Assembly: GCA_951406725.2 (NCBI GenBank)
Contig: OX597814.1
Coordinates: 201,686,001 to 201,750,000 of the forward strand
Reading direction: 5' to 3'
Length of the DNA stretch: 64,000 nucleotides
Source: Octopus vulgaris
Lineage: Eukaryota
Under the pieces are notes generated by a model. That model had not been told where the DNA came from and did not search any database. It worked only from the letters and a program-made list of their open reading frames with translations. Positions 16,938 through 60,800 of the stretch are shown here, one piece after another. Both the position numbers and the translations under genes were made by a program. Each line of letters opens with the position of its first letter. The first letter of the stretch is position 1.

Positions 16938-18609
16938 GTAATTTATTGTGCTGTTAAGATATTGTCAAGAAAAAAACTTTTCCATCTAGTGGGAGATAAA
17001 TATCATTGAATGTGCACAATTTGAAGGTACAAGCAAGGTACAATGGTTTCTTGCATTAGAAACCCTGGTCTAGGCAGGTTTTTACTACATGCCTTGTCTC
17101 TCCATGCAATCTTGAGGCTCTGAAGATTTGCATGGAAACTGAAATCTGCAGAGGCCTTAATCTCTAATACAAGAAATCATTAGCAGCTCAAACCATTATA
17201 CAGTGTACATTGCATGAGGTGTGTGCGTGTGTGTGTGTGTGTATGTTTATATGCATAGACATACATACAGACACATACATACACACACACACACATACTA
17301 CTTATGTAATCATTCTGAGTGTATCACACATCCTCTAACTTCATTTAAAATATCATATTACAATTTTCTGTCAATGGATATTTTCTGTCCCCCTCTTAGC
17401 ACCAACCACAACCACTCTTCATGACTTCGTTAACAATTGCATCCCCTACACATCCATTCCACCCCCACCCCAAAAAAACCCTAGAAACTCATGATCCGTG
17501 ACAGGAATAATCCAAATCTCATTGATTTACGCAGGTCTGTCAAGCATTTCTTACCATTCAGTAACTTCCCGTGGATGCAGGATAAATCACCAACGAGAAA
17601 ATATCCTTGACGTAGAAACAGTTTGAGCAGAAACGCTTGTGATTGTACAATGGAATATTAAGTGGATTCTTCAAACATTAGGAAAACTTTAATAATAAAA
17701 TAAAGTGGACACATCAAGTATATATATGTGTGTGCGTGTGTGTGTGTGTGTGCGTGTGTGTGCGTGTGCGTGTGTGTGTGTTATGTATATATATGTGTAT
17801 GTGTGTATGCATTATGTATATATATGTGTGTGTGTGTTATGTATATACATATATATATGTATGTGTATGTGTGAGTTATGTATATATATATATATATATA
17901 TGATGATATATATATATGATGATGATATATATATATATATATATACACATACATATATATATGTGTGTGTGTGTATATATATATATATCTGCTTATGCTT
18001 CATATGATTAGAAACATTAAATTCTCTATGTATATATATATATACACACACACACATATATGTGTATGTATATATATATATGAATATATATATACATACA
18101 CACATACACACATGCATGTACGCATGTGCATGCACACACACACACACATACATACACAACCACACAAAGTTACATATATAATACATACAAAACTTTGAAT
18201 GAAGACACAAAGAAACTAGGGGGCGGGGAGGTGCCTAAAAAGGCAAGTTTGCCAGAAATTTCATTGAAGAACATGGATGAATTGAATTAAGGGAATAATA
18301 GTTTCTAAAAAAAAAATCCTTTCAATAAAATGGTAAAAGTAATGGAAGTCCCAAAGAGTAAATAAAATATGAGGAATAAGTTATTTTCAAGACAAAAAAA
18401 GGTGGAATGTATGGTTTAAATTTGGATAACATGTTCATACCATTTTAATGGGAAATGTCAAGTCGAGGAAAGAATGATTCCACTATTCGTAGCTGAAGTA
18501 ATTTTGTGGAAGAAATATTGCTCAATTTAGAAAAAATTGATATGAAAAGTCTATAAAATTTAGTTTAATCTCAGGTATCCATTATATATTACCAATAATC
18601 TCTCTATTA

Positions 18610-19024
18610 TAATAATACCAAAAAGGTAATCTTGATCTCAAACTAAATGTGGATGTTGCGTTAGAACATACAGTACTGTGTTATTTACCTTGAGAGAACC
18701 TTTCATAAAGGCTTGTGGGGCTTAAAAGCATGTGTAATTATTTGTTGACAGAAAATAATTATTTGCTATGACTACCAGTACTGCCAGATCCCATGATTTC
18801 ACCCTGCTATGGGTTCCTCAGTGACAGATGTCCAGCAGAAGCACAACAATCAAATATCCAGTCAACAATATAAAAAGATCTCAGTGTCTATTCGAGCACT
18901 GATGTCACAAATAGCCAAGGGGCTTATTAAAAAATTACTAATAGTGACAGAAACAGTAATAATAACAGAAGGTAATCTTGATCTGTAACTTAACATGGAT
19001 GTTGTGTTAGAACACACAATACTG
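18610..19024 (-). mobile_element. Retrozyme-like element family 1: ~346-bp non-coding monomer with ~68-bp terminal redundancy and one HHR
   Basis: Direct repeats at 18610-18678 and 18958-19024 (ggtaatcttgatct at 18625 and 18971); internal HHR; homologous copy at 4385-4674. Confidence 0.7.
18781..18827 (-). ncRNA. Type I hammerhead ribozyme with canonical core
   Basis: RNA: CUGUCA-CUGAGGA-ACCC-auagca-GGGU-GAA-AUC-augg-GAU-C^UGGCAG. All core nucleotides are present; AUC site, predicted cut between 18787 and 18786. Confidence 0.85.
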
Positions 19025-20671
19025 CATGTGAAGCTAGGAGTGTGCATTAAAGAACCTTTGAAAGGGGACCCATTGTGTACACCTTGCAGATAAAGATATC
19101 ATTATTGATAAGGAAAAAGGTGCATATATGTAGGAATACAGAGATGTTGGGATGCATTTTAGGGCTGAGAAAAATGTCTGAACATTGTAGGACTGGAAGG
19201 AATCTTTATTATACAACTGGGTGAAGAACAGAACATTTCAGAACTGGAAGAAAGGGGTGCACTTGTAGATGTGGGAAGAGTGCATGGGAATTTTAGGGAT
19301 GGGAGCAGGGGACTCACCTTATATAACACAAAGAAGAAATTATTATAGTATTAGGGAAAGGGGGAAATATTTAGGACTGGGAAGAGAAGTATGTATATTG
19401 TAGAACTAGAAGGGACCCACCATATATAGAACTGGAAAATGAAAAGGCTACTAATGGATTGGGAGAAGGGGAGTCACTTTTGAGATTGGAAGAGTGGATG
19501 TGCATTGTAACTAGTATGCTGTGGCGCGCTGGTGTGCCATGAGATGATGCTAGGTGTGCCACAGTGTAACCTGGATATAATTCTTTTCCTTGCAATTATA
19601 TTCTTAGTTTAGGTGTGTCACTGAATTTTGAGAAGAATTTAAGAATGAAGTGGAAAAAATGGGTGCAGAGCACTGCATTATATGACCAGGGGAAAGGCAG
19701 CGAATTGGCAGAATCATTAGCATGTTGGACGAAATGCTTAGGGTTATTTCATCTGTCACTACGTTTTGAGTTCAAATTCCGCTGAGGTCGACTTTGCCTT
19801 TCATCATTTTGGGGTTGATAAATTAAGTACCAGTGAAATACTGGGGTCAATGTAATCGGCTTAATCCCTTACCCCAAAATTTCAAGGTCTTTTGCCTTCA
19901 GTAGAAAGGATTATATGAGCAAAGGAAGGGGACTCATCTTTCACAAGTGGAAGAAGGGAACATGATCAGACTTATTAGAATGAGAGAATAGGGTGCTCTT
20001 CTCAAGGTGACAAAAGAAGGGGATTGACCTTGGAAGGAGAAGATAATATTTGTGAGAGTAGAATGCACATGCAAGATTGAGAAAAGTGGGGTAAAGATTA
20101 TTGAAATAGGGCAAGGGGACCCATATTATACACCTCAAAGCTGAAAATATTTTATGACTAGATAAATGGGTTGTACTTCTAGGAGGTTTGCGGCTATAGT
20201 AGAAGACACTTGCCCAAAATGACATGCAGTGGGACTGAACCCAGAAACCATGTGGTTGGTAAACAAGCTACTTACCACACAGCCACTCCTGCACCTATTT
20301 ATATATGTATATACACACACACATACACACACACACACACACGCACACACACACACATATATATCTATATATATATATACACTTTTTATCTTATATTAAA
20401 CTTTTTAATACTTTTTGATAGTTATATATATTTATAATTTTAAAAAAAATTTAAATAATAATAAAAATTAAAATAATAAAATATATATATATATATATAA
20501 ATTTATAAATACAAATTAATAATTTAAAAAATTTTTTAAATTTAAATAATTTAAATTTTGAATTTTATATTTTATATATTTGTATATTATATTAATTAAT
20601 TTTATTTCTATGTTTTGGTTTATGTTTTTCACTGTTTGATTTGCCTAATAGTGGTTTTATCTCTAATTTAA

Positions 20672-26120: not shown

Positions 26121-26761
26121 TTAATCCTTCTGTTACAATATTTCTGTTGAGATGCTCTGTATTTCTTTCAATTAATTTTAAATATAACAAAGAATTTTGT
26201 AAAATAACTTAGTTATCATTATGACATTTGTACTAGAGTCAGAGGCAGTTTCAGCTAGGTATCAAAAGGGTTGAATTAATCATTTGTTAACCCTTTTTTC
26301 ACCATATTTCTGTTGAGATGCTCTGTGTTTCTTTCAATTAATTTTAAATATAACAAAGAATTTAGTAAAATAACTTAGTTTTCATTAAGCTAGTGTTAGG
26401 ACCATAAATTATGACTAAGGCTTGGTAGAAAGGTTCTAATTCAGGACATTTGAAAACAAGAGATTTGTGCTACAGAGCCAGACACAGTTACAACCAGCTT
26501 GGTATTGAAAGGGTCATTTGTAATCATTTGTTAACCCTTTTTTCACCATATTTCTGTTGAGATGCTCTGTGTTTCTTTCAATTAATTTTAAATATAACAA
26601 AGAATTTAGTAAAATAACTTAGTTTTCATTAAGCTAGTGTTAGGACCATAAATTATGACTAAGGCTTGGTAGAAAGGTTCTAATTCAGGACATTTGAAAA
26701 CAAGAGATTTGTGCTACAGAGCCAGACACAGTTACAACCAGCTTGGTATTGAAAGGGTCAA
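26121..26761. mobile_element. Three tandem piggyBac-type MITE units (TTAA-CCCTTT...AAAGGG-TTAA)
   Basis: Units start at 26121 (internally deleted), 26287 and 26531; the last two are near-identical with a 244-bp period. Confidence 0.8.
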
Positions 26762-30674: not shown

Positions 30675-31681
30675 TGTATGTATGTATGTACATATATATA
30701 TATACAGACGTTTTTTGAATTTTTTAAAACCAATGGTTAGGTGAAATGGTTAGTACCTTTACCTGGTGTTTCAATACCTCAGAGTTAGGATCCCTTCTAC
30801 AGGAAATTTACATAGAAAAGGTGTTGATAGCTGATATTTCCATAAATTTCATGAAGAACGGCACCTGTGTCAGTGGAACGTTAAAAGAACCATTCAATTA
30901 TGATCATTGCCAGCACAGCTGACTGGCTCCCATGCCGGGGGCACATAAGAAAAAAAAAGCACCATTCAAGCATGGTCATTGCCAGTACTGCTAGACTGGC
31001 TGCTGTGCAGGTGGCATGTAAAAAAACACCATTTGAGCATGGCTAATGCCAGTTCTGCCTGACTGGCCCTCGTGCTGGTGGCACATAAAAGCACCCACTA
31101 CACTCTCAGAGTGGTTGGCGTTAGGAAGGGCATCCAGCTGTAGAAACTCTGCCAGATCAAGATTGGAGCCTGGTGCAGCCTTCTGGCTCGCCAGCCCACA
31201 ATCAAACCATCCAACCCATGCCAGCATGGAAAGCAGACGTTAAACGATGCTGCAGCTGCTGAGGATGGTGTGACAACGGTGATGATGATGGTGATGATGA
31301 TGATAAAGGGTCCTAACTCATTGACTCACATTATTTAATTTTTATAAATTGCAGTTTTTTGGCTTTAAAAAAAATATTCAAAACATTTATATCTTCATCA
31401 TCATCATCATGATTTAATGTCCATTTTCCATACTAGCATAGGTTGGAAAGCTTGTCAGAAACTGGCAAGTCAGAAGATGCACAAAGCTCTTCCATCAATC
31501 ATAGATAGGCCCAGAGGAAAAGAAATGATGGAATAATTTAGCTGCTTGGAAAGTGGTTGATTCTGCTGTAAAAGGGGACAAAAAAATTGATCAAAACAAA
31601 TTCTTAAAATGGAAGAAATATCAAACGATTCTTTTCAAAACTCATAGTGAATTGCAGCACATCTTATAAGGGTAGAACTAA

Positions 31682-33530: not shown

Positions 33531-33883
33531 CAAATGATAATTTGTTTTATTTGTCACCAGTGCATAAAATGAGGGAAACATTACAATGACAGTCTACAAT
33601 TTGTGTTGGGGTTTAGATAAACGATGAGGGGAAGAAAGGGAGTAAACAGAGAAATGAGATAAAAGTGTGCATAGAACAAAAAATCCCATCTATGACACAG
33701 CCCTCTTGATAGAGGGGAAAACAATCAAGGGACCCTGAAAATCCAATATCACTCTGACCACCAAGGGTACAAGTCTTGACCCATCTGTTGTTCTCCAATC
33801 TACAGGTGCATGCTAAGAGTTGCACTTTTCACCCTATTTTCGCTACACCTTTTGACCCTGAAAGGTTTTTCAATGATAATTCT

Positions 33884-34354
33884 TTAACCCTTTCATTGCT
33901 GTATTTATTTTGAGATGATCCGTGTTTCTTTCAATTAATTTTTAATATAACAAAGAATTTATTAAAATAACTTAGTTATCTTTAAGCTTGTGTTAGGAAC
34001 ATAAATTGTGACTAAGGTTTGGTGGAAGATTTTAATTCAAAACTTATGAAGACAAGACATTTGTACTCAGAGCCAGAGTTGGTTTCAGCCGGGTTGGTAA
34101 CAAAAGGGTTAAATTAATAATTTGTTAACCCTTTTGTTACCATATTTCTGTTGAGAAACTCTGTGTTTCTTTCAATTAATTTTAAATATAAGAAAGAATT
34201 TAGTAGAATATCTTAGTTATCATTCAGTTAGTGTTAGGAACATAAATTGTGACTAAGGTTTGGTGGAAGATTTTAATTCCAAACTTATGAAAACAAGACA
34301 TTTGTACTACAGAGTCAGAACTGGTTTCAGCCGGGTTGGTAATGAAGGGGTTAA
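33884..34354. mobile_element. Head-to-tail dimer of the piggyBac-type MITE
   Basis: TTAA at 33884, 34109, 34125 and 34351; terminal inverted motifs cccttttgttacc / ggtaacaaaaggg. Confidence 0.85.
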
Positions 34355-35304
34355 AAGAGAAAATGGCCTACAGTGTGCATGTTATTAAATGGAAAAACAG
34401 TTAGTATGAATCATCATAAGACATTTTTGTGTATAAATATATTGTTTATTCTGTGTTCACCATTTGTGGTGGGAGCAGGTAGTATGATACAAAAACGTGT
34501 GTTTATATACAAAGAAAGTTTTGATTTTTTTGCTTTTGTGCTGAAAGAAGTAACATATAATATTTGTATGTATGCATGTGTGTAATGAGAACAGTCATTT
34601 TGACAATGTGTGTGATAAAATAGCTTCGTTTACGAACCATATATCTTGTGTCATGGAGACACATGGCCTATGGGTTAGAGCAGTGAACTCGTGGTCGAGG
34701 GATCGCGAATTTGAATCTCATACCGGGCGATGTGTGTGTTTATGAGCGAAACACCTAAGCTCCATGTGGCTCCGGCAGAAGGTAATGGCGAATTTCTGCT
34801 GACTCTTTTGCCACAATTTTCTCTCACTTTTTCCTCCTGCATCTTTGCAGCTCACCTGCGATGGACTGGCATCCTGTCCAGGTGGGGAACCTATACGCCA
34901 AAGAAACTGGGAAGCCAGCCCTTATGAGCCAGGCATGACTCAAGAAGAAACAAACAAAACAATATCTTTTGTCGAGGTGAATAGACATGTGAATTGCACG
35001 TGGGAGATTATGCATGGAGCTGCAGAGAAGACATGTGTCTTTGACCAAAGCCTGACAGGAACTGAGAGTTCCTACCGTGTAGCTCAGAACGAGGCTAATG
35101 TCTCAGAACAAGGCCACTGTATCAAAGCAAGGCTAGTGTATCAAAGCAAGGCTAGATGCCACATCGATATATTCATCTGCTGTGCAGCTCAATTCACATA
35201 ATTCTATGTAATATGTAGCTCTTTGTTTTGAATTGCTGAGACACAACAAATTTCCCTTGATTTTTCTGAGCTGCCTAACTCACACATTTATTCCCTGCAT
35301 TTAC

Positions 35305-37025: not shown

Positions 37026-38095
37026 GTTTAGAGTAAAACAAACCTGAAAATAATATAAACCTGAAAATGTTGAGTAGAAGAAGAGATTAATTTTGTGTAT
37101 TTGCTTGTTTTTTTGTTTCATCTTGTTATTTTTTTTTTTAGGAAGCAAGATGGCAGAAATATATTCAGTGAAACATGATGTTAAAGCATTGAAATATATT
37201 TTATAATTCTGCCAGAGTCTCTTGTGGACCAGAAGTGATGAAGCTTAAATCAAAATGGATTCACACAAATAAAACTGTTATGATTGCATTACAAAAAATA
37301 TTCCTGTTAAACTCCTTCCACAGTGTATTCTTTGCTAACCGTGTACGATACTAAACTAACAGGACTAATGGTGGCGGATGAGGGGGGGGGGTTATATTTT
37401 CTTTTTCTTTTATTTTATCTTTTGCTTGTTTCAGTCATTGGACTGTGGCCATGCTGGAGCAATGCCGTGACGAATTCTTTTAGTTGAATGACTTGACCAT
37501 AACCCTCTTTTTCTTTTGAAGCTTGATATCTATTCTGTTGATCTCTTTTGCTGAACTGCTAAGTTATGGGGATGTAACCAAACTAACACTGTTTGCCAAG
37601 CAGTGGTGGTAAACAAAAACAGATACAGAGACACTCACGCACACACACACACACTATCCTGTACAATTATATGACTATCCGAATGTGACCACTGCCAGGC
37701 CCACCTGACTGGCTCCTGTGCCAGAGGCACGTAAAAAGGACTATCTGAATGTGATCGATGCCAGACCCACCTGACTGGCTCCTATGCTGGTGGCACATAA
37801 AATGCACCCAGTACATTCTAAGAGTGGTTGGCGTTAGGAAGGGCATCCAACTGTAGAAAGATTGCCAGATCAGATTGGAACCTGGTGCAGCCTCCTGGCT
37901 CTCTTGACCTCAGTCAAACATGGAAAACGGACGTTAAACAGTGATGACGATGAAGATGATTTGCACCACCTAATCAAACCATGGTTCAATTCCACGTCAT
38001 GGTACCTTGCCTTCAACTAAAGCCCCAGGCTGACCAAAACCCTGCGCATAGATTTCGTAGATGAAAACTGAAAGAAGCCTATGTGTTTGTGTGTG

Positions 38096-44731: not shown

Positions 44732-45693
44732 TATGTTTGACTTTTGCTTTATGTCTGTACAAGTTGGCTCCAAGTCTCACCCAGAGACCTCAAGAGACAA
44801 CAGGTTGGAAGTTATGTGCCATATATTTGGGGGGGGGGGGGTTCCCTTTTTTTTTGGTGTTGTACTAGTGAATGTCTAATACATAAAAATAAAATTAAAA
44901 AAATAAAATAAAAATAAAAAAAGGTTGTTTTAAACCTTGGGATTACATAGAGAGTATTTTGCGTAGGATATGAGCAGTTCCCATGAGCACTATCTTTTGA
45001 ATTTCTGCCATTTTGGGGTTTCCTGGTATCTGAGTTAGGTAGCAATCAGTCCCTTTCGCTATCATTCCCAGGGCACCTGACAACAGGTATTGTTTTAGTC
45101 TTCAGCTTCCACATTTTGCTGATTTCTATTTCAAGATCTTTATATTTGCTCAGTTTTTGGTAGGTCTTGACAGATATGTTTATATCGATTGGGACAGTCA
45201 TATCAATGAGGAGGCATGTTCTTTGCCTGAAGTCTTTCAATATGATGTCTGGCCTATTTGCATCTATCTTCCTGTCAGTTTGAATGGTGAAGTTCCAGAG
45301 GAGTGAGATGTGGTCATTTTCAAGCACTGGAGGTGGATTGTGTTCCCACCAGTTTTTTTCATGGGGCAAATCCATGTTTTTGCAAATTACCCAGTGAATA
45401 TATTGTGCAGCTCTATCATGCCTACTGAGGTACTCTGTAGGCGCTAGAAGACTGCATTTGGAGACAACATGATCAATGGTTTCATTTTGTTGTCGGCATA
45501 CACGACACGTTGGACTGCTGCTGATCTTTAATATGTTGGCCTGGTAGTTTCTTGTTGGTAGGCATTGATCTTGAGCTGCTATGATAAACCCCTCTGTTTC
45601 AGATTTTAAGCCAGAGGCCATTAGCCATTGATGGGTCAGGGCTGTGTCGATATCTGCATTATTCACTCTCTTTGGGTATTTGCCATAGAGAGG

Positions 45694-45697
<4 letters not shown>
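44731..45697 (-). mobile_element. 5'-truncated R4/Dong LINE with well-preserved CCHC and RLE domains
   Basis: ORF 45046-45666: ETEGFIIAAQDQ, CRVC..ETIDHVVSKC, RHD, RPDII, LID, KLSKY.DL; (TAA)n arrays on both sides. Confidence 0.92.
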
Positions 45698-46233: not shown

Positions 46234-47465
46234 GTGTTGTTGGACCTAAGAAGCATCAGTTGCGGTGTGCAAGAGAGACGTTTGCGCTGGTATGGCCATG
46301 TGGCGAGAATGGATGAAGATAGTTGTGTGAAAAAGTGCCACACCCTAGCTGTTGAGGGAACCTGTGGAAGAGGCAGACCCAGGAAAACCTGGGATGAGGT
46401 GGTGAAGCACGACCTTCGAACTTTAGGTCTCACCGAGGAGACTAGAGACCGAGACCTTTGGAAGTATGCTGTGCGTGAGAAGACCCGGCAGGACAAGTGA
46501 GACCATCACCCATGGCCTCAGTCCACTTATGCATACCTTTCCTTCTTGGGACACAAAACCCTACTTGTGAAGACCTGTTGAGGCAAGTGAAAATCAAAAA
46601 ATCAATGGAAATTGTAGCTGTGATACTAGTGCTAGTGGCACATAAGAGAACCATTCAGACGTGGCCGTTGCCAGTGCCGCCCTGACTGGCTTCCGTGCCG
46701 GTGGCACATAAAAAGCACCATCCGATCATGGCCATTGCCAGCCTGGCCTGGCCTCCATGCCGGTGGCACGTAAAAAGCACCATCTAATCGTGGCCGTTTG
46801 CCAGCCTTGCCTGGCCTCCATGCCGGTGGCACATAAAAAGCACCATCCAATCGTGGCCGTTTGCCAGCCTTGCCTGGCCTCCGTGCCGGTGGCACGTAAA
46901 AAGCACCATCCAACCGTGGCCGTTTGCCAGCCTTGCCTGGCCTCCATGCCGGTGGCACATAAAAAGCACCATCCAATCGTGGCCGTTTGCCAGCCTTGCC
47001 TGGCCTCCATGCCGGTGGCACATAAAAAGCACCATCCAATCGTGGCCGTTTGCCAGCCTTGCCTGGCCTCCATGCCGGTGGCACATAAAAAGCACCATCC
47101 GATCATGGCCATTGCCAGCCTGGCCTGGCCTCCATGCCGGTGGCACGTAAAAAGCACCATCCAACCGTGGCCGTTTTCCAGCCTCGCCTGGCCTCCATGC
47201 CGGTGGCACGTAAAAAGCACCATCCAACCGTGGCCGTTTTCCAGCCTCGTCTGGCACCTGTGCCGGTGGCACGTAAAAAGCACCCACTACACTCATGGAG
47301 TGGTTGGCATTAGGAAGGGCATCCAGCCATAGAAACATTGCCAGATCAGACTGGGCCTGGTGCAGCCTTCTGGCTTCCCAGACCCCAGTTGCACCGTCCA
47401 ACCCATGCCAGCATGGAAAGCGGACGCTAAACAATGATGATGATGATGATGATGATGATGATGTT
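46234..47465 (+). mobile_element. 5'-truncated RTE-clade LINE with minisatellite-bearing 3' UTR and (GAT)n tail
   Basis: RRLRWYGHVARM...GRGRPRKTW C-terminus. The 3' UTR end (ggcattaggaagggcatccag...aaacaatgatgat) recurs more than 12 times in the window. Confidence 0.92.
46631..47290 (+). repeat. 62-63-bp tandem repeat, 10 units plus one degenerate unit
   Basis: gccggtggcac at 46697, 46759, 46822, 46885, 46948, 47011, 47074, 47136, 47199 and 47262. Confidence 0.95.
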
Positions 47466-47552: not shown

Positions 47553-47953
47553 TGCTGTAATTCTCTTTCAGAGATTTAGACATGCAATATTTCTAAATTT
47601 GTAGATCCGTGAATTTATTTCACTTGATATTCTATAAGTTTTCAACAGCGATTTAGCCCTGACAGCTAGCAAAGCCAAGCTACTCCAGATTAATGAAGGG
47701 CAACTATCCTGAAACTAGTCTCTGGGTGCTGGCTTTGTTGGGTGGAGGTGCTTATCTCCGCTGTTTGAAAGCTTAAGAATACAGAACACTTGTGTTGCAT
47801 AGCCAACTAGAAACAGTGCTCCTTGGGGCTAAATAACAGTAGCATTTTCCCCTTTCCTGGGACAGCCACATTAAGTTGGCAACAAACCATCACTTTATCA
47901 TGCTGCTACTGCATAACTCTCTCTGAGAGATTTAGAAATGCAATATTTCTAAT
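47553..47953 (+). mobile_element. Retrozyme-like element family 2: ~356-bp monomer with ~40-bp terminal redundancy and a decayed HHR
   Basis: gagatttaga.atgcaatatttctaa at 47571 and 47927; HHR fold lies between them. Confidence 0.6.
47668..47739 (+). ncRNA. Minimal type I HHR motif with mutated core
   Basis: CCAGA-UUAAUGA-AGG-gcaacuau-CCU-GAAAC-UA-GUC-UCUGG; stem I extends via agcaaagcc/ggcuuuguu; palindromic stem III ACUAGU. Confidence 0.65.
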
Positions 47954-48894
47954 TTCAAATTTTTTCTGTTGTCTTGAAAGCATTCTATATAATACGTGTG
48001 TTGCGGTGCCTTTTCTGTATGTTTTATGTATGTCACTCTCCTAAAGAGCTTCATCATGTGTTTGTATATTATTTATCTTTCCCAAGATACCCATTAATTC
48101 CTCCACTTCCTCCTCTTCATCATCATTATCATGATGATCATCATCATCACCTTCTTCTTCTTTCCCATCTTTCCCTTCTTTCCCTTCTTTCTCTTCTTCT
48201 TCTTCTTCTTCTTCTCTTCTTCTTCGTCTTCTTCTTCTTCTTCTTCTTCTTCTTCTTCTTCTTCTTCTTCTTCGTCTTCTTCTTCTTCTTCATCTTCTTC
48301 TTCTTCTTCTTCTTCTTCTTCTTCTTCTTCTTCTTCTTCTTCTTCTTCTTCTTCTCCTCGATGTTGCTATTCTTGTTGTTCTTCTTTTTCTTGTTGCTAT
48401 CATGATCATCATCATTATCATCATCCTCATCACCTTCTTCTTACCCTTCTTTCCCTTTTTCTCTTCTTCTTCTTCTTCTTCATCTTCTTCCTCATGTTGC
48501 TATTCTTGTTGTTCTTCTTTTTCTTGTTGCTATCATGATCATCATGATCATCATGATCATCATCATGATCATCATGATCATCATCATGATCATCATCATC
48601 ATTACCTTCTTCTTCTTTCCTTTCTTTTCCTTTTTCTTCTTCTTCTTCTTCTTCTTCTTGTTGCTATTCTTGTTGCTCTCCTTGTTGCTACTAAGCTGGC
48701 AGAATTATCAACACATCAGACAAGATGCCTCCTAACATTTCACCTGAAACTTTACATTCTAAGTTCAAATCCCACAGAGCTGAAGTTTGTCTTTCCTCCT
48801 TTTGGGCCCACTAAGAAAACATACCAATCAAGTCCTGGCGGGAGGGGGTCGATACATTTGACTAACTCCCTTCCTTGAAAAAACTGCTGAGCTG

Positions 48895-60383: not shown

Positions 60384-60800
60384 AGGTGGCAAGCTGGCAG
60401 AAACGTTGGCACGCCGGGCGAAATGATCAGCGGTATTTCGTCTGCCATTAAGTTCTGAGTTCAAATTCCGCCGAGGTCGACTTTGCCTTTCATCCTTTCG
60501 GGGTCGATTAAACAAGTACCAGTTATGCACTGGGGTCAATATAATCAACTTAATCCATTTATCTGTCCTTGTTTGTCCTCTCTGTGTTTAGCCCCTTGTG
60601 GGTAGTAAAGAAATAGGTATTTCGTTTGCCGCTACGTTCTGAGTTCAAATTCCACCGAGGTTGACTTTGCCTTTCATCCTTTCGGGGTTGATTAAATAAG
60701 TACCAGTTATGCACTGGGTTCAATATAATCGACTTAATCCCTTTGTCTGTCCTTGTTTGTCCTCTCTGTGTGTGGCCCCTTGTGGACAGTATAGAAATAA
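60384..60800 (+). mobile_element. SINE family B with tandemly duplicated core
   Basis: Head followed by two ~180-bp core units. Confidence 0.85.

What the first reader, a model, noticed from the sequence alone, without database searches (positions are those of the whole stretch)
47553..47953. Unrelated second retrozyme-like unit: 356-bp period with a minimal HHR
A ~40-bp direct repeat (47571 vs 47927) brackets an HHR fold with a long stem I, AGG/CCU stem II, GAAAC-UA-GUC and palindromic stem III (ACUAGU), the form known to cleave as a dimer. The core reads UUAAUGA (two transitions from CUGAUGA), so this copy is probably dead. It shares size class and architecture with family 1 but no evident sequence similarity, suggesting several independent ~350-nt circular-RNA families.
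Basis: partly seen in the sequence, partly recalled or inferred. Interest (0 to 1): 0.72.

Follow-up and report, generated by a model that had tools for sequence, protein, structure and literature searches.

The report
Old hammerhead retrozyme, Penelope-type insertions
This is a decayed copy of an old, genome-wide family of 356-base repeats carrying a predicted self-cutting RNA; the family is a known kind, but its copies end at two fixed points in a way that suggests a Penelope-type enzyme pasted them in, and a second jumping gene lands again and again at their likely transcription start.

Summary
The 42-bp repeat, 356-bp period and hammerhead fold are real. The unit is one copy of a dispersed family (2539 first-look candidates; three subfamilies; about 7% from the consensus in the two measured). 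38 of 74 unselected cores are canonical; this copy has C3U, G5A and a damaged promoter motif, so it is probably dead. The repeat is not an LTR or target duplication but the 5'-truncated end of a preceding monomer. Copies end at two fixed sites 57 nt apart; 76 of 137 loci are head-to-head, and 52 of 53 classifiable ones use one site per end: the Penelope 'tail' footprint, often in TA repeats. The ribozyme is the canonical metazoan type I form, not the 'minimal' one. An ATCAGT motif shared with 23 of 24 U1/U2 genes predicts a start at 47664, where a Tx1-like LINE inserts (27 of 60 top LINE 3' ends). No long array, circular RNA or partner Penelope was found. Verdict: new member of the non-LTR retrozymes. 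The scan noted the same footprints earlier for other families in this genome.

The parts
47558..47599 (+). 5'-truncated remnant of the preceding monomer (last 42 nt of the tail); gives the apparent terminal repeat
   Evidence: 5' ends vary freely among 137 loci
47600..47955 (+). one full 356-nt retrozyme monomer, subfamily a, 24 substitutions in 356 from the subfamily consensus
47605..47617 (+). predicted snRNA-type proximal promoter element; family ATCAGTGAATTTA, here mutated to ATCCGT
   Evidence: ATCAGT at -57 to -61 in 23 of 24 U1/U2 genes of G000 and at -59 from 47664; intact in 54 of 72 arms
47664..47677 (+). predicted transcription start and target site (13-14 bp duplication) of a Tx1-like LINE in other copies; empty in this copy
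47630..47779 (+). predicted long hairpin that encloses the hammerhead
   Evidence: inner part 89.6% paired over 60 copies
47684..47726 (+). type I hammerhead: stem I 6 bp, core UUAAUGA (C3U, G5A), stem II with CAACUA loop, palindromic stem III ACUAGU, predicted cut after 47720
47894..47898 (+). fixed 3' end site B of family insertions (predicted reverse-transcription start without tail)
   Evidence: 86 of 226 segments end in the 22-nt bin around it, 44 exactly at 47898-equivalent
47899..47955 (+). 57-nt Penelope-type tail; its end (47953-47955) is fixed 3' site A, used by this copy
   Evidence: 97 of 226 segments end in the 22-nt bin around it

Best explanation
This is a probably inactive copy of an old non-coding retrozyme family whose copies end at two fixed sites 57 nt apart and were likely written into the genome by a Penelope-like reverse transcriptase/GIY-YIG endonuclease. 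Shown: dispersed family, fixed 3' ends, variable 5' truncation running back into a previous monomer, head-to-head arms pairing one site with the other, TA-repeat targets. Inferred life cycle: a source locus with more than one unit is transcribed from an snRNA-type Pol II promoter (start near 47664); hammerheads, probably pairing as dimers through the palindromic stem III, cut out a 356-nt monomer that a host ligase would circularise; a Penelope protein cuts AT-rich DNA and primes cDNA from both ends of the break, one end at site A (with tail), the other at site B, and the truncated cDNAs are joined. This copy is a single arm of 398 nt begun at site A; with one ribozyme only it could not release a monomer even before it decayed. 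A Tx1-like LINE inserts at the predicted start site of the family.
For: Family: 79 matches from 40 scored of 2539 candidates, 82-89% identical for full-length hits; 89, 148 and 153 exact motif matches with 0 in reversed controls. Ends: 183 of 226 segments end in two 22-nt bins; 76 of 137 loci head-to-head, 0 tail-to-tail, A+B in 52 of 53 classifiable (p 6e-15); TATATA within 16 nt of 29 of 62 A ends and 17 of 33 B ends against 5.1% background. The two arms of one locus are more alike than arms of other loci (0.870 vs 0.854, 42 of 55). These match PLE anatomy in PMC8557442 and two-site initiation in PMC11167929. Ribozyme: 38 of 74 unselected cores canonical; stem I keeps 6 pairs through different sequences in 4 of 6 sister copies and in family 1. 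Promoter; the same LINE family sits at +1 of a U2 gene (L230).
Against: No partner PLE identified: 16 loci of one PLE family share no sequence with the monomer. No circular RNA shown. Within-family covariation does not exceed shuffles (158 of 500). 23 of 76 head-to-head loci have at least one end off both sites. A pile-up of 5' ends at the cut site is weak (6 of 52, p 0.056; 10 of 63 with partner arms, p 0.03 against flanks, and another bin is as high). 101 of 213 arms run through a cut site, which a circle explains but so does an uncleaved linear RNA. The tail (57 nt) is longer than the 30-40 nt in the papers. Loci are top-scoring or exact-motif samples, and a few are segmental duplicates (L103/L116, probably L024/L102).
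Confidence: 0.8

Rival explanations
1. Same Penelope-driven element, but copied from uncleaved linear multimeric transcripts; the hammerhead and circles are not needed for insertion.
For: [quoted passage not shown] 101 of 213 arms cross a cut site. LINE-plus-retrozyme read-through RNA was copied in L171, which is not a monomer circle.
Against: Long arrays that could supply such RNA were not found (longest about 2.9 units); only 4 of 213 arms cross two cut sites; related retrozymes of coral, mussel and axolotl are circular (PMC7229834, passages).
Confidence: 0.3
2. The 356-nt unit is only the pseudo-LTR of an autonomous Penelope element, and this locus is a truncated PLE copy.
For: Same insertion anatomy; most PLE hammerheads occur as solitary truncated copies (PMC4209133); retrozymes resemble pLTRs in Xenopus (10.64898/2026.07.22.740005).
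Against: Monomers join head-to-tail with no ORF between; shared long inserts found in flank comparisons were LINE DNA with target duplications; the PLE family checked has its own minimal hammerhead and no similarity.
Confidence: 0.08
3. The hammerhead segment is the 3' tail of the LINE rather than its target.
For: 27 of 60 top LINE 3' ends run into it; several 5'-truncated LINE pieces lack upstream retrozyme DNA (L172, L174, L176, L177, L187).
Against: L149, L152, L154 and L179 have retrozyme DNA on both sides with a target duplication; tandem LINEs are separated by the 13-14 bp duplication only; most copies have no LINE (4 of 29 subfamily c loci); relatives sit at U2 +1 and in sister families.
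Confidence: 0.03
4. A small LTR-like or TSD-bounded element with a designed 42-bp terminal repeat.
For: The two 42-nt copies at this locus.
Against: Redundancy length varies from none to 479 nt among copies.
Confidence: 0.01

Closest known systems
Metazoan non-LTR retrozymes (PMC7229834; mussel 350-390 bp, axolotl 331/353 nt)
   Same: Canonical type I hammerhead, 356-nt non-coding monomer, low GC, strong self-pairing, head-to-tail junctions, PLEs in the same genome
   Different: Mostly 0.3-1.6 units in head-to-head arms rather than long arrays; old and decayed; circular RNA not shown; two fixed 3' ends not mentioned in the passages read
EN+ Penelope-like elements (PMC8557442; PAc in PMC11167929)
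   Same: 5' truncation, partial tandems, inverted 5' arm, tail at one end only, AT/TA targets
   Different: No ORF; canonical rather than minimal hammerhead; tail 57 nt; strict A+B pairing per locus, whereas the in vitro study saw no strand difference in start site
Vertebrate retrozymes as non-autonomous PLE derivatives (10.64898/2026.07.22.740005)
   Same: Same conclusion on the mobilising enzyme
   Different: That preprint argues from co-occurrence and pLTR homology; here the evidence is insertion anatomy, and no homologous pLTR was found
Target-specific Tx1-clade LINEs: Tx1 in Tx1D, Keno in U2 genes, Tx1-Mar (PMC4494074)
   Same: Fixed site in a multicopy repeat, tandem re-insertion, a relative in a U2 gene
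   Different: Target is the predicted start of a hammerhead retrozyme; clade not established by phylogeny here
Newt satellite 2 (recalled; snRNA-type promoter)
   Same: About 330-nt hammerhead repeat with an snRNA-type promoter
   Different: Recalled only; search listed two papers and none was read on this point

Membership tests
Metazoan non-LTR retrozyme | Canonical type I hammerhead (helix I 6 bp, helix II about 4 bp, short palindromic helix III) | tested here: met
   the family is canonical, this copy is mutated; stem II is 3 firm pairs plus a non-conserved closing pair
Metazoan non-LTR retrozyme | Monomer of 150-450 bp, non-coding, under 50% GC, no LTR | tested here: met
   356 nt; sequence; terminal overlap variable
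Metazoan non-LTR retrozyme | Tandem copies (dimers or more) | tested here: met
   54 arms longer than one unit, 4 crossing two cut sites; about 2.9 units at L281; no long arrays found
Metazoan non-LTR retrozyme | Self-cleavage of the RNA | not testable with these tools
   bench assay; genomic 5'-end pile-up is inconclusive
Metazoan non-LTR retrozyme | Expressed as circular RNA | tested here: inconclusive
   only assembled contigs of guessed RNA runs were available
Penelope-type insertion | 5' truncation, partial tandem, inverted 5' arm | tested here: met
Penelope-type insertion | Two fixed 3' ends with a tail at one end | tested here: met
   52 of 53; 57 nt
Penelope-type insertion | AT-rich or TA microsatellite target | tested here: met
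Autonomous PLE | RT plus GIY-YIG ORF between pLTRs | tested here: not met
   no such frame at a constant junction in the loci examined
Minimal PLE hammerhead | Long helix II (6-8 bp), short helix I, no helix III | tested here: not met
   against the definitions in PMC4209133
Tx1-clade target-specific LINE (inserts in other copies) | More than 20% of flanks in one repeat type | tested here: met
   27 of 60 directly in this family, including the 2 query loci
Tx1-clade target-specific LINE (inserts in other copies) | RT phylogeny within Tx1 | not tested
   only zf-RVT (E 1e-6) and a weak zf-CCHC hit; Tx1-like is an inference

The most novel reading that the evidence does not exclude
A three-layer parasite system: the retrozyme carries its own snRNA-type promoter; Penelope protein copies one RNA from both ends of a DNA break, each end obliged to use a different start site; and a Tx1-like LINE homes to the retrozyme's +1, borrows the promoter, and its read-through RNA is in turn carried by the Penelope machinery (L171 has LINE 3' ends on both head-to-head arms).
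Probability: 0.4. Interest if true: 0.7.

Novelty: new member of a known kind. Interest (0 to 1): 0.47.

Why it matters
That Penelope elements mobilise animal retrozymes has been argued from co-occurrence and pLTR similarity (PMC7229834; 10.64898/2026.07.22.740005). Here the insertion anatomy itself carries the Penelope footprint, and the near-strict pairing of two start sites per locus is a constraint that the published in vitro system (PMC11167929) can test directly with a 356-nt non-coding template. A LINE that reads the start of both U2 genes and retrozymes adds a target class; a search for 'retrozyme' with 'Tx1' found 0 papers. The copy in the window is itself an ordinary fossil.

Tried and rejected
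Rfam: no hammerhead hit at the locus (E up to 10) or in 10 family loci (E up to 0.001). RNA: no RNA holder listed; four guessed-RNA contig sets cover family-like DNA but not this locus's flanks, and the 'goes back 356' joint equals the genomic tandem junction, so it says nothing on circles. The deepest contig traced to one decayed fragment at L249 with AAAA for GAAA, not an active source. Covariation inside the family is at shuffle level; searches used mis-registered structure strings and were discarded. An unaligned promoter weight matrix was uninformative; the anchored motif comparison replaced it. The first subfamily split used a wrong column and was redone. LINE-adjacent copies seemed enriched for private variants, suggesting an amplified LINE-retrozyme chimera; this was sampling bias, since the variant is a free third subfamily. 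Partner PLE: one family (16 loci) checked, no shared sequence; other PLE families were not checked. The U3-A8 core variant of PMC4209133 does not explain UUAAUGA (here G8 is kept and G5 is changed). No earlier scan note matches this sequence or place.

Full report
Observation. The 42-nt direct repeat (47558-47599 / 47914-47955, 88%) and the 356-nt spacing are real. The monomer folds far better than shuffles (z -5.06; family consensus folded as a circle z -7.3). A type I hammerhead lies at 47684-47726 with core UUAAUGA, two transitions from CUGAUGA, and a predicted cut after C47720. G5A as a standard inactivating change is recalled knowledge. Rfam does not detect it. I use c for position in the family monomer, c1 = window 47600.

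Family. A search of the window's 2.8-Gb animal genome gave 2539 first-look candidates; 40 were scored, and full-length hits were 82-89% identical. Exact motif searches gave 89, 148 and 153 matches with 0 in reversed controls, for subfamilies a/b and a third subfamily c. Median substitution from the subfamily consensus is 7.4% in a (30 arms) and b (45 arms), minimum 2.9%; this copy is 6.7% from a. Among 74 cores not selected for the core, 38 keep CUGANGA, GAAA and UH. Inside the family, pairs are kept in 89.6% of cells but covariation is at shuffle level, as expected for decay after insertion. Across sister families found beside LINE ends, stem I keeps six pairs with different sequence in 4 of 6 copies, and in the window's other family. 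The closing A-U of stem II is not conserved (A.G, A.A, U.U in relatives). A subfamily c variant swaps ACUAGU for another palindrome, ACAUGU (2 of 28), in line with dimer action. By the definitions in PMC4209133 (parts 1-2 of 4 read) this is the canonical, not the minimal, metazoan form.

Insertion anatomy. I mapped 137 loci (148 fetched, 11 duplicate fetches dropped; a few segmental duplicates remain). Of 226 segments of 40 nt or more, 97 end near c354 (site A) and 86 near c299 (site B), 44 of them exactly at c299. 5' ends are spread over the monomer and often run back into a preceding unit; the window's 42-nt repeat is such a remnant. 76 loci are head-to-head, none tail-to-tail; 52 pair A with B, 1 pairs A with A, none B with B, and 23 have at least one end elsewhere (p 6e-15 for 52 of 53). 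Beyond the ends lies TA repeat in 29 of 62 A ends and 17 of 33 B ends that kept the anchor motif, against 5.1% background. Arms of one locus are more alike than arms of different loci (42 of 55, p 4e-5), which shows a shared source variant but not a single molecule. This is the Penelope pattern of 5' truncation, partial tandem, inverted arm and one-ended tail (PMC8557442, passages), which PMC11167929 (parts 1-2 of 4) traces to two internal reverse-transcription starts; that paper saw no difference between strands in vitro. The longest arms are 850 nt (L006) and about 1030 nt (L281, units 94% alike). A pile-up of 5' ends at the cut site is weak. One PLE family of the genome (1362 candidates, 16 loci fetched) has its own minimal hammerhead and no similarity to the monomer.

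A LINE at a fixed site. Flank comparison showed copies split by coding DNA. L149, L152, L154 and L179 have retrozyme DNA on both sides, with 3' junctions at c64-65 and 5' junctions at about c69-78. The inserts carry a zf-RVT domain (E 1e-6) and a weak CCHC knuckle. Of the 30 best matches to one LINE 3' end, 18 run into this family at c64 or its slightly deleted equivalent, 3 into the bare duplication followed by other DNA (more LINE in at least two), 6 into sister hammerhead families, and 3 are otherwise; of 30 matches to a second type, 9 run into this family and about a third have other targets (both counts include the query locus). In L171 both head-to-head arms carry a LINE 3' end followed by c64 to A or B, so a composite RNA was probably copied by the Penelope route (one clear case). 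Tx1-like is inferred from target behaviour (PMC4494074, passages), not from a tree.

Promoter. Earlier scan notes on other families suggested that such sites are transcription starts, and I tested that here. ATCAGT lies at -57 to -61 in 23 of 24 U1 and U2 genes fetched (12 best each, several near-identical paralogues) and at -59 from c65 in the monomer, matching the U1 element at 12 of 13 bases; the chance of the hexamer in a given 4-nt register is about 0.001. The one U2 gene without it has the same LINE family (79-81% identical) at +1. The window copy reads ATCCGT. The window's other hammerhead (18764-18840, minus, period 346) has the motif 82 nt before C3, against 85 here, without sequence similarity.

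Mechanism. Shown: family, fixed ends, A+B pairing, TA targets, LINE junctions, promoter-like motif. Inferred: Pol II snRNA-type transcription, dimer-assisted cleavage, circularisation by a host ligase as in PMC7229834 (passages), and priming from both ends of a break by a Penelope protein. A linear uncleaved template remains a live rival.

Comparison and novelty. The family fits the metazoan non-LTR retrozymes, and a 2026 preprint (parts 1-3 of 5 read; supplements closed) already calls these non-autonomous PLE derivatives. Searches for octopus with hammerhead listed no paper on such a family by title, and retrozyme with Tx1 gave 0 papers; the library lacks most subscription journals. The scan has reported the two-site footprint and LINE targeting for other families here, but no note matches this sequence. 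Verdict: a fossil copy of a new family of a known kind, with a useful mechanistic footprint; interest 0.47.

Noticed in passing
window 18560-19120 (minus): Other hammerhead family: weak Rfam HH9 hit 18764-18840 (31.9 bits, below cut-off), period 346, intact CUGAGGA core, ATCAGT promoter-like motif at 18903.
   Followed up: partly
L230:1-1500: U2 snRNA gene with a copy of the retrozyme-targeting LINE family ending at +1 and replacing its promoter.
   Followed up: partly
L180, L185, L188, L190, L191, L194 (just after the LINE 3' end): At least three sister hammerhead repeat families, homologous to this one at about 70%, hit by related LINEs at the same register; L191 has loop CAAAUA and a longer stem III.
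   Followed up: partly
L171:1011-2084 (orientation): Head-to-head insertion whose two arms both carry a LINE 3' end plus retrozyme, ending at sites A and B.
   Followed up: partly
L152, L153, L154: LINE copies of 1.7-2 kb with an ORF1-like frame and 3' end but no ORF2, probably a non-autonomous ORF1-only family.
   Followed up: partly
L250-L265; L149:5600-7000: Penelope-like family of about 2.5 kb with a minimal hammerhead near its end and inverted terminal arms; one copy is nested in a LINE inside a retrozyme.
   Followed up: partly
L249:1500-1700: Decayed family fragment matching the deepest contig in three guessed-RNA runs, probably part of a host transcript.
   Followed up: partly
window 46675-47284: 63-bp minisatellite, 9.7 copies, 92% matches; related units at 30953-31090 and 37673-37802.
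   Followed up: no
window 45046-45696 (minus): 216-aa frame resembling the C-terminal part of a non-LTR retrotransposon protein (recalled resemblance).
   Followed up: no
window 26277-26760, 33876-34355, 60432-60799: Two-copy tandems of 244, 241 and 184 bp; the first pair of units is 100% identical and the first two arrays are related.
   Followed up: no
L163:7160-7894 (minus): Intronless 245-aa frame resembling the ribosome-assembly factor PNO1 (recalled), near C2H2 zinc-finger frames; possible retrocopy.
   Followed up: no
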